From: a virus
Lineage: Duplodnaviria > Heunggongvirae > Uroviricota > Caudoviricetes
IMG/VR virus record: IMGVR_UViG_2671180631_000001
Direction: 5' to 3' (one strand)
DNA length: 7,580 nt
The translations under genes were made by a program, and so were the position numbers. The notes beneath the pieces were generated by a model, which had not been told where the DNA came from, searched no databases, and was given only the letters and a program-made list of their open reading frames with translations. This document shows positions 1-5,114 of this stretch, one piece after another; the stretch's first letter is position 1, and every line of letters begins with the position of its first letter.

Positions 1-34
1 CTCCAATGACTAGTCTAAAAACTAGTATTAAGAC

Positions 35-54
35 TATCACTTATTTAAGTGATA
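35..54. repeat. Perfect 9-bp inverted repeat TATCACTTA-tt-TAAGTGATA (operator-like 20-bp dyad) in AT-rich sequence upstream of the endolysin
   Basis: Read directly: 35-43 tatcactta, 44-45 tt, 46-54 taagtgata; the right arm is the exact reverse complement of the left arm. The existence of the repeat is certain, its function is unknown. Confidence 0.6.
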
Positions 55-108
55 CTGGTTGTCTGGAGATTCAGGGGGCCAGTCTAGTAAGGCTGCGAGA
101 GGTGAATA

Positions 109-500: not shown

Positions 501-551
501 NNNNNNNNNNNNNNNNNNNNNNNNNNNNNNNNNNNNNNNNNNNNNNNNNNN
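501..551. other. Assembly gap or masked segment (51 N)
   Basis: Uninterrupted run of n at 501-551. Flanking gene content shows the true missing length is much larger than 51 bp (see findings). Confidence 0.95.
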
Positions 552-734
552 AAATGCCCTGTGCCATCCTCAGCCGAAACCTCCAGCGCCTCCGGCATGG
601 GCAATGATGCCACCGTCGAACTCTCTCCAGTTGCTGGACGAAACGTTCTCGGTATCCGGGACGGAATCATCAGCGACCAGACAGCATTGAGAATGCTTCA
701 GGAGTACATCAGGATCCAATGCCTTGGGGGGTAG
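552..734 (+). CDS. Rz-like i-spanin, C-terminal 60 codons only (5' part lies in the gap)
   Basis: The frame starting at 552 translates to KCPVPSSAETSSASGMGNDATVELSPVAGRNVLGIRDGIISDQTALRMLQEYIRIQCLGG, ending at TAG 732-734. This matches the pattern of the lambda Rz C-terminus as I recall it (…ASGVDNAASPRLADTAERDYFTLRERLITMQKQLEGTQKYINEQCR), including the penultimate conserved Cys. Confidence 0.8.
   Translation, partial: KCPVPSSAETSSASGMGNDATVELSPVAGRNVLGIRDGIISDQTALRMLQEYIRIQCLGG
553..690 (+). CDS. Rz1-like o-spanin (proline-rich lipoprotein), 3' part, embedded in the +1 frame of Rz
   Basis: The frame starting at 553 gives NALCHPQPKPPAPPAWAMMPPSNSLQLLDETFSVSGTESSATRQH, ending at TGA 688-690. 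CxxxPKPPAPPAW matches the lambda Rz1 core (QCVKPPPPPAW). It lies wholly inside the Rz frame, the classic embedded-spanin architecture. Start codon and lipobox are in the gap. Confidence 0.8.
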   Translation, partial: NALCHPQPKPPAPPAWAMMPPSNSLQLLDETFSVSGTESSATRQH

Positions 735-822
735 CGGTAATTTTACTCATTATCCTTCAAATCAGATTCTGTTGTCAGAGGAATGGGGGAAGCTGGATTC
801 GCAAGAGCTTTTTATGGGCAGT

Positions 823-1335
823 TTAGCTAAAAAAAGGCAACACGAAGCTAAAACTACCAACATAAAGTGCTGACCAGCTAGCAGCTGAAATCAGACTCAC
901 TGTATACACTTTCACTGGATGAAGTTGCAACATTCCTGCCACCAAAGGAGCAATATAACGCAGCACGGCGATAAAGCGCGAAGTGAAAAGTATTGACACA
1001 GAGTTATTTTGCAACTGAAGGCGAACCCGTTCTATTGTATTGGAACGGCTTGATATTATACATGCAAGTTGAGGGATATGCCCAATTATTATACCAAGAT
1101 GGTAATTAACGATAGTACCGCACCATGCGCCACTCATGACCGTGATTCCAGCTTCCCATGGTGAAAGAGTCGTCTTGCTGACTGTAATTACAGTGGCCAT
1201 CATAATTGATGCTGGTGGCAATATCGCCGAAATGAGTAAAGTGGATTTTGTGAACGCTATTATAAAAAGAAGCCCCCATAGGCGATATGGATGAAGTACA
1301 AAATAGTTCATCAAAGCATTTATCCACTCCATCAA
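823..1335 (-). CDS. DedA/YqaA-like (COG1238-type) polytopic inner-membrane protein; AT-rich cargo (moron) gene
   Basis: 170-codon minus-strand ORF with stop TAA (reverse complement of 823-825). TTG at 1335 is immediately followed by ATG at 1332, with AAGGAAAG 7-10 nt upstream. The product is hydrophobic with a YqaA-like pattern (ILPPAS...SPWEAGI...GAWCGTIVNYHLGIIIG...). Sampled 60-nt blocks are about 35-45% GC against about 55% in the phage structural genes. Family assignment is from recalled similarity, not a search. Confidence 0.6.
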   Translation of the reverse strand: MMEWINALMNYFVLHPYRLWGLLFIIAFTKSTLLISAILPPASIMMATVITVSKTTLSPWEAGITVMSGAWCGTIVNYHLGIIIGHIPQLACIISSRSNTIERVRLQLQNNSVSILFTSRFIAVLRYIAPLVAGMLQLHPVKVYTVSLISAASWSALYVGSFSFVLPFFS

Positions 1336-1529
1336 TGTCTTTCCTTCTGTGAATTTTTCTTTGCTATTTAACCGTGATACGACTTAATTTAGGCTTAAAC
1401 ACCTTACATTTACAAGGTACTCCTGTGGGGGGCCCTGCCACGGAGCGTCGCAGGAGTGAGTGATGAGGAAGAATTAAAGCAACCTATTGTGACAGGCAGC
1501 GATAACAGTAAATCACAGGAAGCATAATC

Positions 1530-2294
1530 ATGGCAAAACCGGACTGGGAGGCCATCGAATCGGCATACCGGGCCGGAGTCCTTAGCCTCCGTGATATAGG
1601 CGAGAAATACGGCGTTACAGAAGGGGCTATCAGGAAGAGGGCCAAAAAGCTTGGTTGGGCACGCAGTGGCGGTACGCAGGTTTGCAAAAATGGTACGCAA
1701 AAAAGGAAAGTGCGTACCAGCAGAAAGCCTGCCATTACTGGCCTTACACAAAAAAGTACGCAACTAAAAACAGAATCTACACCGGATACGAAACCGATAC
1801 GCGGAATGCGTACCGATCCCCCGACTAACCCATTCCAACCCGGTAACCAGCAGGCATTAAAACACGGTGGTTATGCCCGTCGCCTTCTGCTCAAAGATGA
1901 GGTGATAGAGGACGCTAAAGCGTTGACGCTCGAGGACGAATTATTTCGCCTTCGTGCTAACAACCTTGTCGCTGCAGAGAATATTGGTCGGTGGTTGGTG
2001 TCGCTGGAAGATGCTAATGGGGACCAGGAAAGGAAGATGCTGATTGAAAATATCAGCGCCGCCGAGAAAGCAATGATGCGCAATACAGTTCGTATTGAGT
2101 CCATCGTTGGCACGCTTGCGACGGTAGGAAAAATATTTGCTGATACAGCCTACCGCAAGGCCGCCACTGATAAGGTGTCTCTGGAGGCTGATCGTCTTCG
2201 CCGTGATGCAGGTATTGATGATGGCAATGGAGAGCGTGACCTCAATGACTTCTACTCTGACATCCAAACCGACGCTGAATCCGGCTTTACGTAG
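1530..2294 (+). CDS. Terminase small subunit (TerS) with N-terminal helix-turn-helix
   Basis: ATG at 1530 with AGGA 9 nt upstream; 254 codons; stop TAG 2292-2294. N-terminal HTH-like segment (SLRDIGEKYGVTEGAIRKRAKKLGW) followed by a basic/Thr-rich linker. Lies immediately upstream of the large terminase subunit. Confidence 0.8.
   Translation: MAKPDWEAIESAYRAGVLSLRDIGEKYGVTEGAIRKRAKKLGWARSGGTQVCKNGTQKRKVRTSRKPAITGLTQKSTQLKTESTPDTKPIRGMRTDPPTNPFQPGNQQALKHGGYARRLLLKDEVIEDAKALTLEDELFRLRANNLVAAENIGRWLVSLEDANGDQERKMLIENISAAEKAMMRNTVRIESIVGTLATVGKIFADTAYRKAATDKVSLEADRLRRDAGIDDGNGERDLNDFYSDIQTDAESGFT
1671..1814. repeat. Cluster of five GGTACGCA / TGCGTACC copies with flanking A-tracts inside terS (candidate pac or TerS recognition site)
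   Basis: GGTACGCA at 1671-1678 and 1692-1699; reverse complement TGCGTACC at 1711-1718 and 1807-1814; GTACGCA at 1756-1762. A5-6 tracts at 1686-1690, 1699-1704, 1750-1755 and 1766-1770. Copies in both orientations argue for a DNA-level rather than peptide-level constraint. Confidence 0.5.
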
Positions 2295-3648
2295 TTTCTG
2301 GACTATGCGGGCACGTAACAAAGTGCTTTATGGTGGTCGGTCATCGTCAAAATCATGGGATGCCGCTGGCATTGCCATATTTCTGTCGAATAAATACACC
2401 CTGCGTTTTTGTTGTGCCCGTCAGATCCAGAATAAAATCGAAGAGTCGGTGTATACCCTGCTCAAAATTCAGATAGACAGGTTTGGTCTGCGGCACCGTT
2501 TCCGTATTCTGAACAACAAAATCATTAACCGGGTTACTGGCTCGGAATTTGTTTTTTATGGATTATGGCGCAACATCGAAGAAATTAAGTCACTGGAGGG
2601 GATCGATGTGTTGTGGCTGGAAGAAGCCCACGCACTGACGGAATACCAGTGGAAAATTCTGGAGCCAACGATCCGTAAAGAGGGTTCGGAATGCTGGTTC
2701 ATATTCAACCCCGGACTTGTTACTGATTTCGTCTGGCGCAACTTCGTTGTTGATCCGCCCGAAGGCACTCTCATCCGCAAAATTAACTATGACGAAAATC
2801 CGTTTCTGTCTGACACCATGCTTAAGGTTATCGACGCGGCGCGACGCCGTGATCCGGATGGTTTTAAACATGTGTATGAGGGCGTTCCGGAGTCTGATGA
2901 TGATGCGGCAATCATCAAACTGTCTTGGATAGAAGCCGCAGTGGATGCGCACAAAACGTTAAATTTCGAACCCAGTGGAAGAAAGCGTATTGGCTTTGAC
3001 GTGGCTGACAGTGGTACAGATAAGTGCGCTAACGTTTACCGTCACGGATCCGTTGTTTTCTGGGCCGACGAATGGAAGGCCAAAGAAGATGAATTACTGA
3101 AGAGCTGCCAGCGTACTTATCAGGCGGCGCTGGAGCGTGAAGCAGATATTGTTTACGACTCTATCGGTGTTGGTGCGTCTGCCGGTGCTAAATTCTCTGA
3201 AATTAACGCTGACCGGAAGAGCGAGAACGCATACGCGCGACGTGTGAATTACCAGAGGTTTAACGCCGGTGCTGGTGTGCATGAGCCAGATGACGAGTAC
3301 AACGGCATCCCCAACAAAGACTTTTTCGCAAATCTTAAGGCTCAGGCATGGTGGCTGGTGGCTGACCGTTTCAGAAATACGTTTAACGCCATTAACAACG
3401 GAGAACAGTATCCTGTGGATGAGCTGATCAGCATAGATTCTCGTTGTCCGTTGCTTGAAAAGCTGAAACTGGAACTGACAACACCTCATCGTGATTTCGA
3501 CCGTAACGGACGTGTGATGGTCGAAAGTAAAAAAGACCTCGCAAAACGCGAGATACCGTCACCAAACGTTGCTGATGCATTCATTATGGCCTTCGCGCCA
3601 ATCGATACATCGCTGGATATCTGGGAACAGCTGGGGAGACAGGCCTGA
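2245..3648 (+). CDS. Terminase large subunit (TerL), PBSX-type ATPase plus nuclease
   Basis: Open frame from 2137 to TGA 3646-3648. Walker A-like YGGRSSSKS, Walker B-like IDVLWLEEAH, and C-terminal nuclease acidic motifs (FDVADSG, IVYDSIG, NVADAFIMA). The start is ambiguous: ATG 2245 (GGAGAG 10 nt upstream, overlaps the terS 3' end) is chosen here; alternatives are ATG 2218/2221/2227 or ATG 2305 (11 nt after the terS stop, no clear SD). Confidence 0.9.
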   Translation: MTSTLTSKPTLNPALRSFWTMRARNKVLYGGRSSSKSWDAAGIAIFLSNKYTLRFCCARQIQNKIEESVYTLLKIQIDRFGLRHRFRILNNKIINRVTGSEFVFYGLWRNIEEIKSLEGIDVLWLEEAHALTEYQWKILEPTIRKEGSECWFIFNPGLVTDFVWRNFVVDPPEGTLIRKINYDENPFLSDTMLKVIDAARRRDPDGFKHVYEGVPESDDDAAIIKLSWIEAAVDAHKTLNFEPSGRKRIGFDVADSGTDKCANVYRHGSVVFWADEWKAKEDELLKSCQRTYQAALEREADIVYDSIGVGASAGAKFSEINADRKSENAYARRVNYQRFNAGAGVHEPDDEYNGIPNKDFFANLKAQAWWLVADRFRNTFNAINNGEQYPVDELISIDSRCPLLEKLKLELTTPHRDFDRNGRVMVESKKDLAKREIPSPNVADAFIMAFAPIDTSLDIWEQLGRQA

Positions 3649-5114
3649 TGGCACGAAACAAACAAGCCCTGCGGCGAACTGTGCAGGCCACAGCTGATGG
3701 TTATGAGAATTTTATTGCCCGCGTAGGGATGCAGACACCTAACCAGCACTCAGCATCCACCTACCGGGCTAATTTCACCAGTCGTAACCGCATGCTGGTG
3801 GAATGGTCCTATCGTTCATCCTAGATCATCGGCGAAGCAGTCGATGCTATCCCGGATGATATGACCCGCAAAGGCATTCGCATCACTTCGGAAATTGATG
3901 CAAAAGATCGTGGCATTCTCGAATCACAACTGGATGAGTTGCAAATCTGGGATGCGCTGAATGACGTGCTGAAATGGTCGCGCCTCTACGGCGGCGCGGT
4001 GGGTTTCATCATGATTGAGGGGTAGGCACCAATGACCCCGCTGCGACCCGAAACCATCGGTAAGGGCAAGTTTAAGGGGATTCTCCCGCTCGACCGCTGG
4101 ATGGTCGACCCGGCACTGACCCGCCGCATTAAAGATATGGGGCCGGACCTGGGTAAACCTGAGTTTTACGATGTGGTGACCACAGCAACGGGAATTCCTG
4201 CCTGGCGCATTCATCACAGTCGCCTGATTCGCTTTGATGGCGTCACGTTGCCATTTCAGCAGAAGATGACCGAGAACGAATGGGGAATGTCGGTTGTAGA
4301 GCGTATCTGGGATCGTCTTACCGCGTTCGACAGCGCTACTGTCGGCGCGGCGCAGCTGGTCTACAAGGCGCATTTGCGTACCTACAGCGTGGAGAAGCTA
4401 CGCGAGCTTATCGCACTTGGTGGTCCTGCGTATGAAGCGTTGCTGAAGAATATCGACCTGATTCGACAGTTCCAGAGTAATGAAGGCATGACGCTCATGG
4501 ACTCGCGGGATAAGTTTGAAACCCATCAGTACAGCTTCAGTGGTCTGGATGACATCCTTTCGCAGTTTGTAGAACAGATTAGTGGCGCTGTTGGTATCCC
4601 ACTGGTGCGGTTGTTCGGACAGTCCCCGAAAGGATTTTCTACCGGTGATGCAGACCTTGCCAACTATTACGATCGCATCAGTTCGTTGCAGGAGAGGCGT
4701 TTACGTCTTCCGGTGCGGCGGATACTGGACATCATGCATCGTTCGGAACTTGGCAAGCCGCTGCCGGACGATTTCACGTTTGAGTTTAACCCGCTCTGGC
4801 AAATGTCTGATGTCGATCGCTCAACGGTGGCGTTAAACACCACCAACGCAATCAGTACGGCGCTGGGTGATGGTCTGATGACACTGAAAGCCGCTATGAC
4901 TGATTTGCGAGAAAATTCTGACGTAACCGGCATCGGGGCATCCATTACCGACGAGGACATCGAGAATGCCGAAGATGAAGCGCCGCCCGGCATCGGCGAA
5001 CCTGATGACGAACCGCAGGAGCCGTCAGGCGGAAATCCGGTATCGAACCAGCCTACGCAGGATAGCGAGGGCGGTCGGAGACATCGTAAATGGTCGCTAC
5101 GATGGTTCAAATGA
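3648..5114 (+). pseudogene. Portal protein gene interrupted by two in-frame TAG codons (3822-3824 and 4023-4025); longest intact segment is 4032-5114
   Basis: ATG 3648 overlaps the TerL stop (TGATG). One frame runs 489 codons to TGA 5112-5114 except for TAG at codons 59 and 126. The translation across both stops reads as one protein (…NRMLVEWSYRSS*IIGEAVDAIPDDMTRKGIRI…GGAVGFIMIEG*APMTPLRPETIGKGKFKGILPLDRWMVDP…), with an acidic C-terminal tail typical of portals. Confidence 0.8.

What the first reader, a model, noticed from the sequence alone, without database searches (positions are those of the whole stretch)
823..1335. AT-rich reverse-strand moron encoding a DedA/YqaA-like membrane protein between the lysis and packaging modules
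The gene is antisense to the late operon, visibly lower in GC than its neighbours, and sits at the classic moron position occupied by bor in lambda. A polytopic inner-membrane protein expressed from a prophage could act in superinfection exclusion, envelope stress tolerance or lysis modulation. It is the only cargo gene in the window.
Basis: partly seen in the sequence, partly recalled or inferred. Interest (0 to 1): 0.4.

Follow-up and report, generated by a model that had tools for sequence, protein, structure and literature searches.

The report
Prophage cargo gene: a DedA membrane protein
A defective Shigella/E. coli prophage carries, backwards between its lysis and DNA-packaging genes, an intact extra gene for a small inner-membrane protein of the DedA lipid-transporter family; this is an ordinary kind of phage cargo, and its one unusual feature is that it belongs to a small uncharacterised branch in which a normally essential acidic residue is replaced by lysine.

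Summary
A 169-aa ORF (ATG at 1332, stop at 823-825, minus strand) lies between the Rz-like spanin gene (ends 734) and terS (starts 1530). It has 41.8% GC, against 48-56% in its neighbours. It scores above Pfam's VTT/DedA threshold (52.4 vs 33.9 bits) and RefSeq already calls it "DedA family protein". It resembles YabI/DedA/YqjA, not YqaA.

It is inserted cargo. Related phages join Rz to terS directly, and only 6 of 5426 complete E. coli genomes carry it. The same ~600-bp module also sits antisense between lysis and terminase genes in an unrelated Citrobacter youngae prophage.

Its relatives form a small Enterobacterales clade. They are native chromosomal genes in Enterobacter, Lelliottia, Hafnia, Morganella and Arsenophonus. 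The clade keeps both essential arginines (R119, R125) but has K29 and A41 where YqjA has E39 and D51. dN/dS is 0.15-0.25, and all 17 copies checked are intact even in decayed prophages.

No convincing promoter or terminator was found, and the function is untested. The most likely role is a lysogen-expressed envelope lipid or undecaprenyl-phosphate translocator. This is a new member of known kinds and of modest interest.

The parts
823..1332 (-). Coding sequence of a 169-aa DedA/VTT-family inner-membrane protein (stop codon at 823-825). Clade signature residues are K29, S30, T31, P39, P40, A41, S42, G68, G72, R119, R125.
1333..1407 (-). AT-rich (33% GC) 5' region that travels with the gene. It contains a Shine-Dalgarno-like GAAGGA at 1347-1342. 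It is conserved at 77-82% with the Citrobacter youngae prophage and C. meridianamericanus copies. The promoter presumably lies here but was not identified.
   Evidence: The only candidate is the weak TTGTAA-18-TAAATT at 1415-1386 (8/12).
779..822 (-). 3' flank of the inserted segment. The left junction with the widespread Rz-downstream sequence is at 778/779. No terminator-like structure is present.
1408..1522 (.). Spacer that accompanies the gene in E. coli/Shigella prophages but is absent from the Citrobacter versions. It includes a 10-bp-stem hairpin at about 1419-1457. The right junction with DedA-less relatives lies at about 1500-1522.
   Evidence: The hairpin folds at -26.6 kcal/mol, z = -2.0.
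552..734 (+). 3' part of the Rz-like spanin gene, the last gene of the lysis cassette. Its 5' part is hidden by the N run at 501-551.
   Evidence: phrog_13, 2.2e-18; annotated 'lysis protein'.
719..823 (+). Small hydrophobic ORF overlapping the end of Rz. It is 45-50 aa in DedA-less prophages. Here homology ends at 778, and the rest of the reading frame is replaced by inserted DNA.
1530..2294 (+). Terminase small subunit gene, the first gene of the packaging module.
   Evidence: phrog_370, 7.5e-95.

Best explanation
The gene is horizontally acquired prophage cargo. It lies in a 720-745-bp segment (about 779-1522) inserted between the spanin gene and terS of a lambdoid/PBSX-terminase mosaic prophage of Shigella flexneri and a few E. 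coli.

Shown:
- It encodes an intact, selectively constrained, minimal DedA-superfamily (VTT-domain) inner-membrane protein.
- The protein belongs to a small Enterobacterales clade related to the YabI/DedA/YqjA branch.
- The clade keeps both functionally required arginines and the serine next to D51.
- The two membrane-embedded acidic residues are replaced by Lys and Ala, and the extra C-terminal helix of YqjA is missing.

Inferred:
- Because it is antisense to the late operon, it is transcribed on its own in the lysogen, as bor is in lambda, and not during lytic growth.
- In the lysogen it acts as an additional inner-membrane lipid translocator. The most probable substrate is undecaprenyl-phosphate or another anionic lipid, flipped by facilitated rather than proton-coupled transport.
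- That would alter envelope carrier-lipid or membrane homeostasis of the host rather than serve phage lysis or packaging.
For: Identity:
- Pfam VTT_dom is above gathering.
- PGAP names the product 'DedA family protein', WP_011069285.1.
- An AF2 model built on 56 sequences is all-helical, with helix-break-helix segments at 30-52 and 111-134 (pLDDT 77, pTM 0.74).

Cargo status:
- Klebsiella phage ST16-OXA48phi5.2 and E. coli strain 8178 join the lysis genes to the same terS without it.
- The gene is in 6 of 5426 E. coli genomes. The Rz flank is in about 1900 of them and the terS start in about 200.
- The gene plus spacer occurs at 99% identity next to a different terminase in L080.
- The 595-bp core (813-1407) recurs at 82% identity, again antisense between lysis genes and a lambda-type GpA terminase, in a C. 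youngae prophage.
- Its GC is 8.6 points below its flanks in Shigella but matches the flanks in the native hosts.

Functional constraint:
- dN/dS is 0.23 between the two phage copies and 0.09-0.25 overall.
- All 17 near-identical copies are intact, although this prophage has two nonsense mutations in the portal gene and IS insertions.
- The exact protein is seen on at least 1000 contigs.

Lipid-transport inference:
- R119 and R125 align with YqjA R130 and R136, and S42 with S52. These residues are required in YqjA/YghB (PMC6849406; bioRxiv 10.64898/2026.09.20.752871).
- Of the 70 nearest long relatives outside the clade, 44 are fusions to PAP2 lipid-phosphatase domains. That association was used to argue that DedA proteins flip UndP (bioRxiv 10.1101/2022.02.03.479048).
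- Orthologues are syntenic chromosomal genes, retained even in 0.85-0.93-Mb Arsenophonus endosymbiont genomes.
Against: - No expression data are available.
- No sigma-70 promoter of 9/12 or better lies upstream, and there is no intrinsic terminator downstream.
- The clade lacks the E39 and D51 equivalents that are required in YqjA/YghB, so its transport chemistry may differ, or it may not transport at all.
- It scores far below the NCBIfam equivalog cut-offs for DedA (31 vs 236) and UptA (19.9 vs 250).
- The PAP2 association concerns the out-group, not this clade.
- No member of the clade has been studied: nothing was found in the searched literature.
- The first re-entrant region of the model is of low confidence (pLDDT 52-59).
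Confidence: 0.55

Rival explanations
1. Superinfection exclusion or another anti-phage function. The membrane protein, made in the lysogen, would block DNA entry or perturb the envelope steps that incoming phages need. One route is a change in O-antigen or ECA supply through carrier-lipid availability.
For: The position and orientation are typical of lysogenic-conversion and exclusion genes. Another antisense gene (DUF1398) fills the same slot in other E. coli prophages. The module has moved between unrelated phage backbones while keeping the same slot and orientation, which suggests it benefits the phage or lysogen.
Against: There is no match to any PADLOC defence model. Most family members are ordinary syntenic chromosomal genes, some in insect endosymbionts with tiny genomes, and their GC equals the host's. 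No sequenced free phage in INPHARED carries the gene.
Confidence: 0.15
2. Modulatory or dominant-negative partner. Lacking the acidic residues, the protein would not transport on its own. It would heterodimerise through its re-entrant hairpins with host DedA paralogues and tune their activity.
For: E39 is replaced by K in every clade member, while all ~130 out-of-clade proteins among the 150 best profile hits keep an acidic residue there, bar one Gln. YqjA is modelled as a dimer whose interface is formed by the re-entrant hairpins, with E39/D51 and R130/R136 at its centre (bioRxiv 10.64898/2026.09.20.752871). All hosts of the clade that were inspected are Enterobacterales, which normally have several DedA paralogues.
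Against: This is purely inferential, with no interaction data. Retention in strongly reduced Arsenophonus genomes fits an autonomous essential function better. D51 is also absent from the YabI-like out-group, so the loss of acidic residues is gradual rather than a clean switch.
Confidence: 0.1
3. Functionless passenger. The gene would be a hitch-hiking remnant of a past illegitimate recombination. It would be silent in Shigella/E. coli and not yet decayed.
For: No recognisable promoter or terminator is present. The gene is very rare in E. coli (6 of 5426). The copies are 99-100% identical, so their intactness could simply reflect recent spread. The carrier prophage is itself decaying.
Against: dN/dS between the two diverged prophage copies is 0.23 with dS = 0.50, so purifying selection acted while the gene was phage-borne. 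The upstream 75 bp is co-conserved with the gene across Citrobacter and Shigella versions. The gene stays intact while the portal and terL genes of the same prophage are hit.
Confidence: 0.15
4. Lysis modulator. The protein would be a membrane protein that tunes holin or spanin function during the lytic cycle.
For: It lies immediately next to the lysis cassette, and it is a polytopic inner-membrane protein.
Against: It is convergent with, and antisense to, the late transcript, so late transcription would oppose its expression. Close relatives of the lysis cassette and of the terminase genes work without it. Its orthologues are chromosomal housekeeping-type genes.
Confidence: 0.05

Closest known systems
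E. coli K-12 YabI, DedA and YqjA (DedA family, Pfam PF09335)
   Same: VTT-domain core. phmmer gives 39.9, 32.1 and 27.7 bits. The G-A-x-x-G motif, both arginines of the second re-entrant loop (R119, R125) and the serine after the D51 position are conserved. Like YabI, it has no Asp at the D51 position.
   Different: Only 22-23% identical. It is 169 aa rather than 219-254 aa, lacking the C-terminal helix and part of the N-terminus. Lys replaces the Glu (YqjA E39) that almost every nearest out-of-clade relative keeps. It is prophage-borne here.
UptA (B. subtilis YngC) and other DedA-type undecaprenyl-phosphate flippases
   Same: Same superfamily. The nearest relatives outside the clade are often fused to PAP2 phosphatase domains, the association used to support UndP transport (bioRxiv 10.1101/2022.02.03.479048).
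   Different: The NCBIfam UptA equivalogs score 19.9 and 16.3 bits against cut-offs of 250 and 300. No functional data exist for this clade. The acidic residue is replaced.
bor of phage lambda (positional analogue)
   Same: A single extra gene immediately downstream of Rz, on the opposite strand to the late operon and upstream of the packaging genes. It differs in composition from its neighbours and is expressed in the lysogen (lambda facts from established knowledge).
   Different: No homology. Bor is a small outer-membrane lipoprotein, whereas this is a polytopic inner-membrane VTT protein; Pfam reports only VTT_dom. An own promoter and expression in the lysogen are not demonstrated here.
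VTT-PAP2-LssY_C fusion proteins (600-700 aa)
   Same: Their N-terminal VTT domains are the best-scoring relatives outside the clade, at about 72-87 bits to the clade profile.
   Different: They keep the Glu at the E39 position (invariant E31 in A6) and a near-invariant Asp in the G-D-x-x-S-Y motif. They also carry phosphatase and LssY_C domains, which are absent here.

Membership tests
DedA / VTT-domain superfamily (Pfam PF09335) | Significant match to the VTT_dom profile above the curated gathering score | tested here: met
   52.4 bits against a cut-off of 33.9, E = 9.2e-14, covering residues 41-161 and profile positions 3-121 of 123.
DedA / VTT-domain superfamily (Pfam PF09335) | Two conserved arginines in the second re-entrant loop (YqjA R130, R136), required for function | tested here: met
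   R119 and R125 align with them. Both are invariant in the 20-sequence clade alignment. In the 56-sequence alignment R125 stays invariant and R119 is nearly invariant.
DedA / VTT-domain superfamily (Pfam PF09335) | Membrane-embedded acidic pair in the first re-entrant region (YqjA E39, D51), required in YqjA/YghB | tested here: not met
   K29 and A41 occupy these positions. All complete clade members have K/A. The nearest ~130 non-clade relatives nearly all have E at the first position and S/A/T/V at the second.
DedA / VTT-domain superfamily (Pfam PF09335) | Fold with two facing re-entrant helical hairpins flanked by transmembrane helices | tested here: inconclusive
   The AF2 model (pLDDT 77, pTM 0.74) is all-helical with helix-break-helix segments at 30-52 and 111-134. 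No solved DedA structure exists for comparison: the best PDB match has E = 1.9. The only viral fold matches are Megaviridae 'SNARE associated Golgi proteins', TM 0.46-0.61. Model coordinates could not be inspected.
NCBIfam equivalogs: DedA PRK10847 and UptA | Score at or above the curated equivalog cut-off | tested here: not met
   31 bits vs 236, 19.9 vs 250 and 16.3 vs 300. The protein is a family member but not an equivalog of any named protein.
YqaA subfamily | Detectable sequence similarity to E. coli YqaA | tested here: not met
   Neither phmmer nor the clade profile hits YqaA at E <= 10, whereas YabI, DedA and YqjA are hit.
Phage moron (an extra transcription unit between genes that are adjacent in related phages) | Present/absent between the same two genes in related phages | tested here: met
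   The Klebsiella phage has 208 bp where this window has about 800 bp. E. coli strain 8178 has the same terS without the gene. Only 6 of 5426 E. coli genomes carry it.
Phage moron (an extra transcription unit between genes that are adjacent in related phages) | Base composition distinct from the surrounding phage genes | tested here: met
   41.8% GC (GC3 38%) against 47.7-56.3% in the neighbours; 8.6 points below the flanks in the S. flexneri locus.
Phage moron (an extra transcription unit between genes that are adjacent in related phages) | Own promoter upstream | tested here: inconclusive
   No site of 9/12 or better on the minus strand in 1333-1530. There are two weak 8/12 candidates, and neither is conserved in the Citrobacter copies.
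Phage moron (an extra transcription unit between genes that are adjacent in related phages) | Own terminator downstream | tested here: not met
   No terminator-like site on the minus strand below 823. The fold of 735-830 is no more stable than shuffled sequence, z = +0.65.
Phage moron (an extra transcription unit between genes that are adjacent in related phages) | Expressed from the repressed prophage | not testable with these tools
   This needs strand-specific transcriptomics of a lysogen. No paper mentioning the protein accession was found.
Known anti-phage defence systems (PADLOC-DB 2.0) | Match to any defence-protein model | tested here: not met
   0 families at E <= 1.

The most novel reading that the evidence does not exclude
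The K29/A41 'acid-less' short DedA proteins are a mechanistically distinct branch. They would either be proton-independent flippases or scramblases for an anionic lipid such as undecaprenyl-phosphate, or regulatory partners of canonical DedA proteins. Temperate phages would have captured one and spread it through Shigella flexneri, because boosting or retuning carrier-lipid recycling changes O-antigen or envelope properties. That change would benefit the lysogen through antimicrobial-peptide or alkaline tolerance, or through resistance to superinfection. This would be the first lysogenic-conversion function acting at the UndP-recycling step.
Probability: 0.12. Interest if true: 0.6.

Novelty: new member of a known kind. 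Interest (0 to 1): 0.3.

Why it matters
If the protein is active, it adds a ninth DedA paralogue, of a type absent from the E. coli core genome, to nearly all sequenced S. flexneri. DedA proteins are linked to undecaprenyl-phosphate recycling, polymyxin and antimicrobial-peptide resistance, capsule production and divalent-cation and alkaline tolerance (PMC6849406, PMC10846249, bioRxiv 10.1101/2022.02.03.479048). A phage-delivered copy could therefore influence envelope phenotypes of a pathogen.

The clade is also a natural experiment on the Glu that is considered essential in DedA transporters. It is replaced by Lys in every member, including those kept in tiny endosymbiont genomes. As it stands, though, this is a correctly annotated family member in a well-known cargo slot, with no functional data.

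Tried and rejected
- Solved structures: a sequence search of the PDB found nothing relevant, and Foldseek against the PDB found no match. No experimental DedA structure is available for comparison.
- The first AF2 model, built on only 20 clade sequences, was poor (pLDDT 54.5) and was discarded in favour of the 56-sequence model.
- The afdb50 fold library was unavailable.
- Rfam found no RNA family in 600-1700.
- Promoter and terminator scans gave nothing convincing around the gene.
- Literature searches for a prophage-borne DedA, or for the protein accession, found nothing.
- tblastn against 50,697 deposited phage genomes found no member of this clade. The best hits are 24-30% identical DedA genes in records that look like host DNA or bins.
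- The 74%-identical copy on a C. freundii 'plasmid' sits among chromosomal housekeeping genes (icd, purB, mnmA), so it is not evidence of plasmid carriage.
- YqaA-likeness was rejected.
- The IMG/VR locus L095 looked like a Mu-like phage context, but the DinI-DedA pair lies outside the Mu end and matches the C. meridianamericanus chromosomal arrangement. It was not counted as phage cargo.

Full report
**1. The observation**

The window has an ORF at 823..1335 on the minus strand, 170 aa from a TTG. An ATG follows directly at 1332. All homologues start MEW/MTW at that ATG, and two have TTC instead of the TTG. The likely product is therefore 169 aa (1332 to 826, stop at 823-825), preceded by GAAGGA nine bases upstream.

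The gene has 41.8% GC and GC3 of 38%. Its neighbours are lysozyme 47.7%, Rz 56.3%, terS 51.2%, terL 48.5% and head genes 53.7%.

Upstream on the plus strand lie a phage lysozyme (Pfam, 1e-31) and the C-terminal part of an Rz-like spanin (phrog_13, 2e-18) that ends at 734. Downstream lie terS (phrog_370, 7.5e-95, from 1530), a PBSX-type terL, a DUF1073 portal, a Mu-F-like protein, DUF2213 and a cement protein. The gene is antisense to all of them and is the only non-lysis, non-morphogenesis gene in the window.

**2. What the protein is**

Pfam VTT_dom (the DedA/SNARE-associated domain) matches residues 41-161 at 52.4 bits, against a gathering score of 33.9. RefSeq annotates the identical gene as "DedA family protein", WP_011069285.1.

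NCBIfam equivalogs for DedA and UptA are hit only far below their cut-offs. Against the E. coli K-12 paralogues, phmmer finds YabI (39.9 bits), DedA (32.1) and YqjA (27.7), but not YqaA, YdjX or YdjZ.

The protein is very hydrophobic and has no Asp at all. An AlphaFold2 model built on a 56-sequence alignment reaches pLDDT 77 and pTM 0.74. It is all-helical, with helix-break-helix segments at 30-52 and 111-134, where DedA re-entrant hairpins are expected. No solved structure resembles it. In the viral structure library, only giant-virus "SNARE associated Golgi proteins" match, and weakly (TM 0.46-0.61).

**3. A distinct small clade**

Word-indexed and exhaustive profile searches find a compact family.
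- Only 12 of 1.84 billion cluster representatives score below 1e-30.
- Scores then drop from about 130 bits to about 90 bits.

Aligned with YqjA:
- The two arginines required for YqjA/YghB function (R130, R136) correspond to R119 and R125.
- The serine after D51, reported as functionally important in a 2026 preprint, corresponds to S42.
- The two required acidic residues E39 and D51 correspond to K29 and A41.

The residue requirements are documented in PMC6849406 and bioRxiv 10.64898/2026.09.20.752871.

Every complete clade member has K/A. Almost all of the ~130 nearest non-clade relatives have Glu at the first position and S/A/T/V at the second, as YabI does. The Glu-to-Lys change is therefore the clade's signature, while loss of D51 is shared with the YabI-like out-group.

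The protein also lacks the ~45-residue C-terminal helix of YqjA.

Of the 70 nearest long out-group proteins, 44 carry a PAP2 lipid-phosphatase domain and 56 an LssY_C domain. Roney and Rudner used DedA-PAP2 fusions as evidence that DedA proteins flip undecaprenyl-phosphate (bioRxiv 10.1101/2022.02.03.479048).

**4. Where the family lives**

One genome per species was scanned, and 64 species have a member.
- In Enterobacter and Lelliottia (about 50% identity) the gene is chromosomal. In most loci it is divergently adjacent to an MgtE-like gene.
- In several Arsenophonus (about 40% identity) the MgtE-like gene lies just downstream.
- Hafnia, Morganella and Kosakonia also have chromosomal copies.
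- In these hosts the gene's GC tracks the genome, from 21% in an 853-kb endosymbiont to 61% in Enterobacter, so it is native there.

The gene is prophage-borne only in S. flexneri/E. coli (99-100% identity) and in Citrobacter youngae (78%).

The C. youngae prophage has quite different lysis genes (GH19 endolysin, other holins) and a lambda-type DUF1441/GpA terminase. The gene nevertheless sits antisense between lysis and terminase there too.

DNA similarity between the two prophages is confined to window 813-1407. That is the ORF plus 10 bp downstream and 75 bp upstream.

**5. Cargo status and junctions**

- Klebsiella phage ST16-OXA48phi5.2 matches the window up to 724 and again from 1523, with 208 bp in between.
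- E. coli strain 8178 has a 98.6%-identical terS without the gene.
- The Rz flank up to 778 occurs in about 1900 of 5426 complete E. coli genomes and the terS start in about 200. The gene occurs in 6.
- The left junction is at 778/779. There the insertion replaces the C-terminal part of a small hydrophobic ORF that is 45-50 aa in other prophages.
- The right junction lies at about 1500-1522.
- In IMG/VR contigs the same segment, at 99% identity, adjoins a different terminase (L080), or is separated from Rz by an IS110-like element (L092).
- In other E. coli prophages the same slot holds a different antisense gene, DUF1398.
- In lambda it holds bor (established knowledge).
- No deposited phage genome carries this clade.

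**6. Is it functional?**

Pairwise dN/dS is 0.09-0.25. Between the two phage copies it is 0.23 with dS = 0.50, so purifying selection acted while the gene was in phages.

All 17 near-identical copies are intact, with at most one conservative substitution each. The exact protein is recorded on at least 1000 contigs, mostly S. flexneri.

The surrounding prophage is decaying, by contrast:
- The window starts inside an IS2-like end (1-86) that abuts the lysozyme gene.
- The portal gene has two nonsense mutations.
- The S. flexneri reference locus has a 1331-bp IS in terL.

Against autonomous expression, no sigma-70 site of 9/12 or better lies upstream, only two unconserved 8/12 candidates. No terminator lies downstream. 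No Rfam family is present. Expression therefore remains an inference from orientation and selection.

**7. Mechanism**

Best supported (confidence about 0.55): a lysogen-expressed inner-membrane DedA-type lipid translocator that adds to, or retunes, host carrier-lipid or membrane homeostasis.

The shown steps are family membership, retention of the arginine pair and serine, selection, and cargo status. The inferred steps are the substrate (UndP or another anionic lipid, from the out-group's PAP2 fusions and from published DedA biology), transport without the usual acidic residue, and expression in the lysogen.

The rivals are:
- exclusion or defence (0.15). There is no PADLOC hit, and the orthologues look like housekeeping genes;
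- a regulatory partner of host DedA proteins (0.10);
- a silent passenger (0.15);
- a lysis modulator (0.05).

**8. Comparison and novelty**

The gene is a member of the DedA/VTT superfamily but not an equivalog of any named protein. It fails the acidic-pair criterion that defines the studied YqjA/YghB type.

Positionally it works like lambda bor but is unrelated to it. The strict moron criteria are met for presence/absence and composition, not met for a terminator, and unresolved for a promoter.

The annotation already exists in RefSeq, and cargo genes in this slot are commonplace. I therefore rate it a new member of known kinds, with interest 0.3. The Lys-for-Glu clade and its spread through S. 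flexneri are the only elements that could make it more interesting.

Noticed in passing
window 1-86: The window begins inside the terminal 86 bp of a multi-copy insertion sequence, with 20,770 places in E. coli genomes. The same end bounds a 1331-bp insertion with a 5-bp target duplication in another locus. Size and duplication fit IS2 (identification from memory). It abuts the region just upstream of the lysozyme start, so the holin gene that precedes lysozyme in related prophages is not in the window.
   Followed up: partly
window 3648-5114: The DUF1073 portal gene carries two in-frame nonsense mutations relative to E. coli FDAARGOS_944: G->A at 3823 (Trp59 to stop) and C->T at 4023 (Gln125 to stop). 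There are no indels. The prophage in this genome is therefore defective, while the DedA gene is intact.
   Followed up: yes
window 501-551: A run of 51 N masks the end of the lysozyme gene and the start of the Rz/Rz1 spanin genes. This makes ORF listing fuse the two genes into one artificial 193-aa ORF (109-690).
   Followed up: no
L016 5090-6420 (S. flexneri SFBU1023), equivalent to window 2908-2912: In the S. flexneri species-representative genome the same prophage has a 1331-bp IS inserted in terL, with duplication of window bases 2908-2912. The lysozyme region is also missing or rearranged.
   Followed up: partly
window 719-823 (+): A small hydrophobic ORF overlaps the end of Rz (MPWGVAVILLIILQIRFCCQ...). 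It is conserved as a 45-50-aa ORF in many lambdoid prophages and in the Klebsiella phage. Here its C-terminal part is replaced by the inserted DNA. Its function is unknown.
   Followed up: partly
window 1419-1457: A 10-bp-stem inverted repeat (ACTCCTGTGG...CCGCAGGAGT) lies in the spacer between the DedA upstream region and terS. It folds at -26.6 kcal/mol with z = -2.0 and has no T-run on either strand. It travels with the gene in E. coli/Shigella prophages but is absent from the Citrobacter versions.
   Followed up: partly
L024-L054 around 7480-7620; L055, L057-L059 and L079 around 9000: Chromosomal orthologues are next to an MgtE-like (PF01769) divalent-cation transporter gene. It is divergent in most Enterobacter/Lelliottia loci and downstream, on the same strand, in several Arsenophonus. 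It is absent from the Morganella loci. Published work links DedA proteins to Mg2+/Ca2+ homeostasis (PMC10846249), but this could simply be inherited synteny.
   Followed up: partly
P0040 and 69 other proteins (alignment A6): The nearest relatives outside the clade are mostly 600-700-aa fusions of a VTT domain with PAP2 phosphatase (44 of 70) and LssY_C (56 of 70) domains.
   Followed up: yes
L102 3172-3582 (E. coli HR12-1): Another antisense gene (a DUF1398 family protein) occupies the slot downstream of the Rz-like gene in a different E. coli prophage. This shows that the position is a recurrent cargo site.
   Followed up: no
L103 (NZ_CP056259.1, C. freundii 'plasmid' pRHBSTW-00902_4): This 82-kb record, typed as a non-mobilizable plasmid, carries chromosomal housekeeping genes (icd, rluE, mnmA, hflD, purB). 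Beside icd, a classic prophage integration site, lie ars genes, an Ail/Lom gene and a DinI-VTT gene pair. It may be a misassigned chromosomal segment holding a prophage remnant.
   Followed up: no
L092 8485-9934: In one IMG/VR contig a 1.45-kb element is inserted between the Rz gene and the DedA segment. It encodes an IS110-like transposase split into two ORFs.
   Followed up: no
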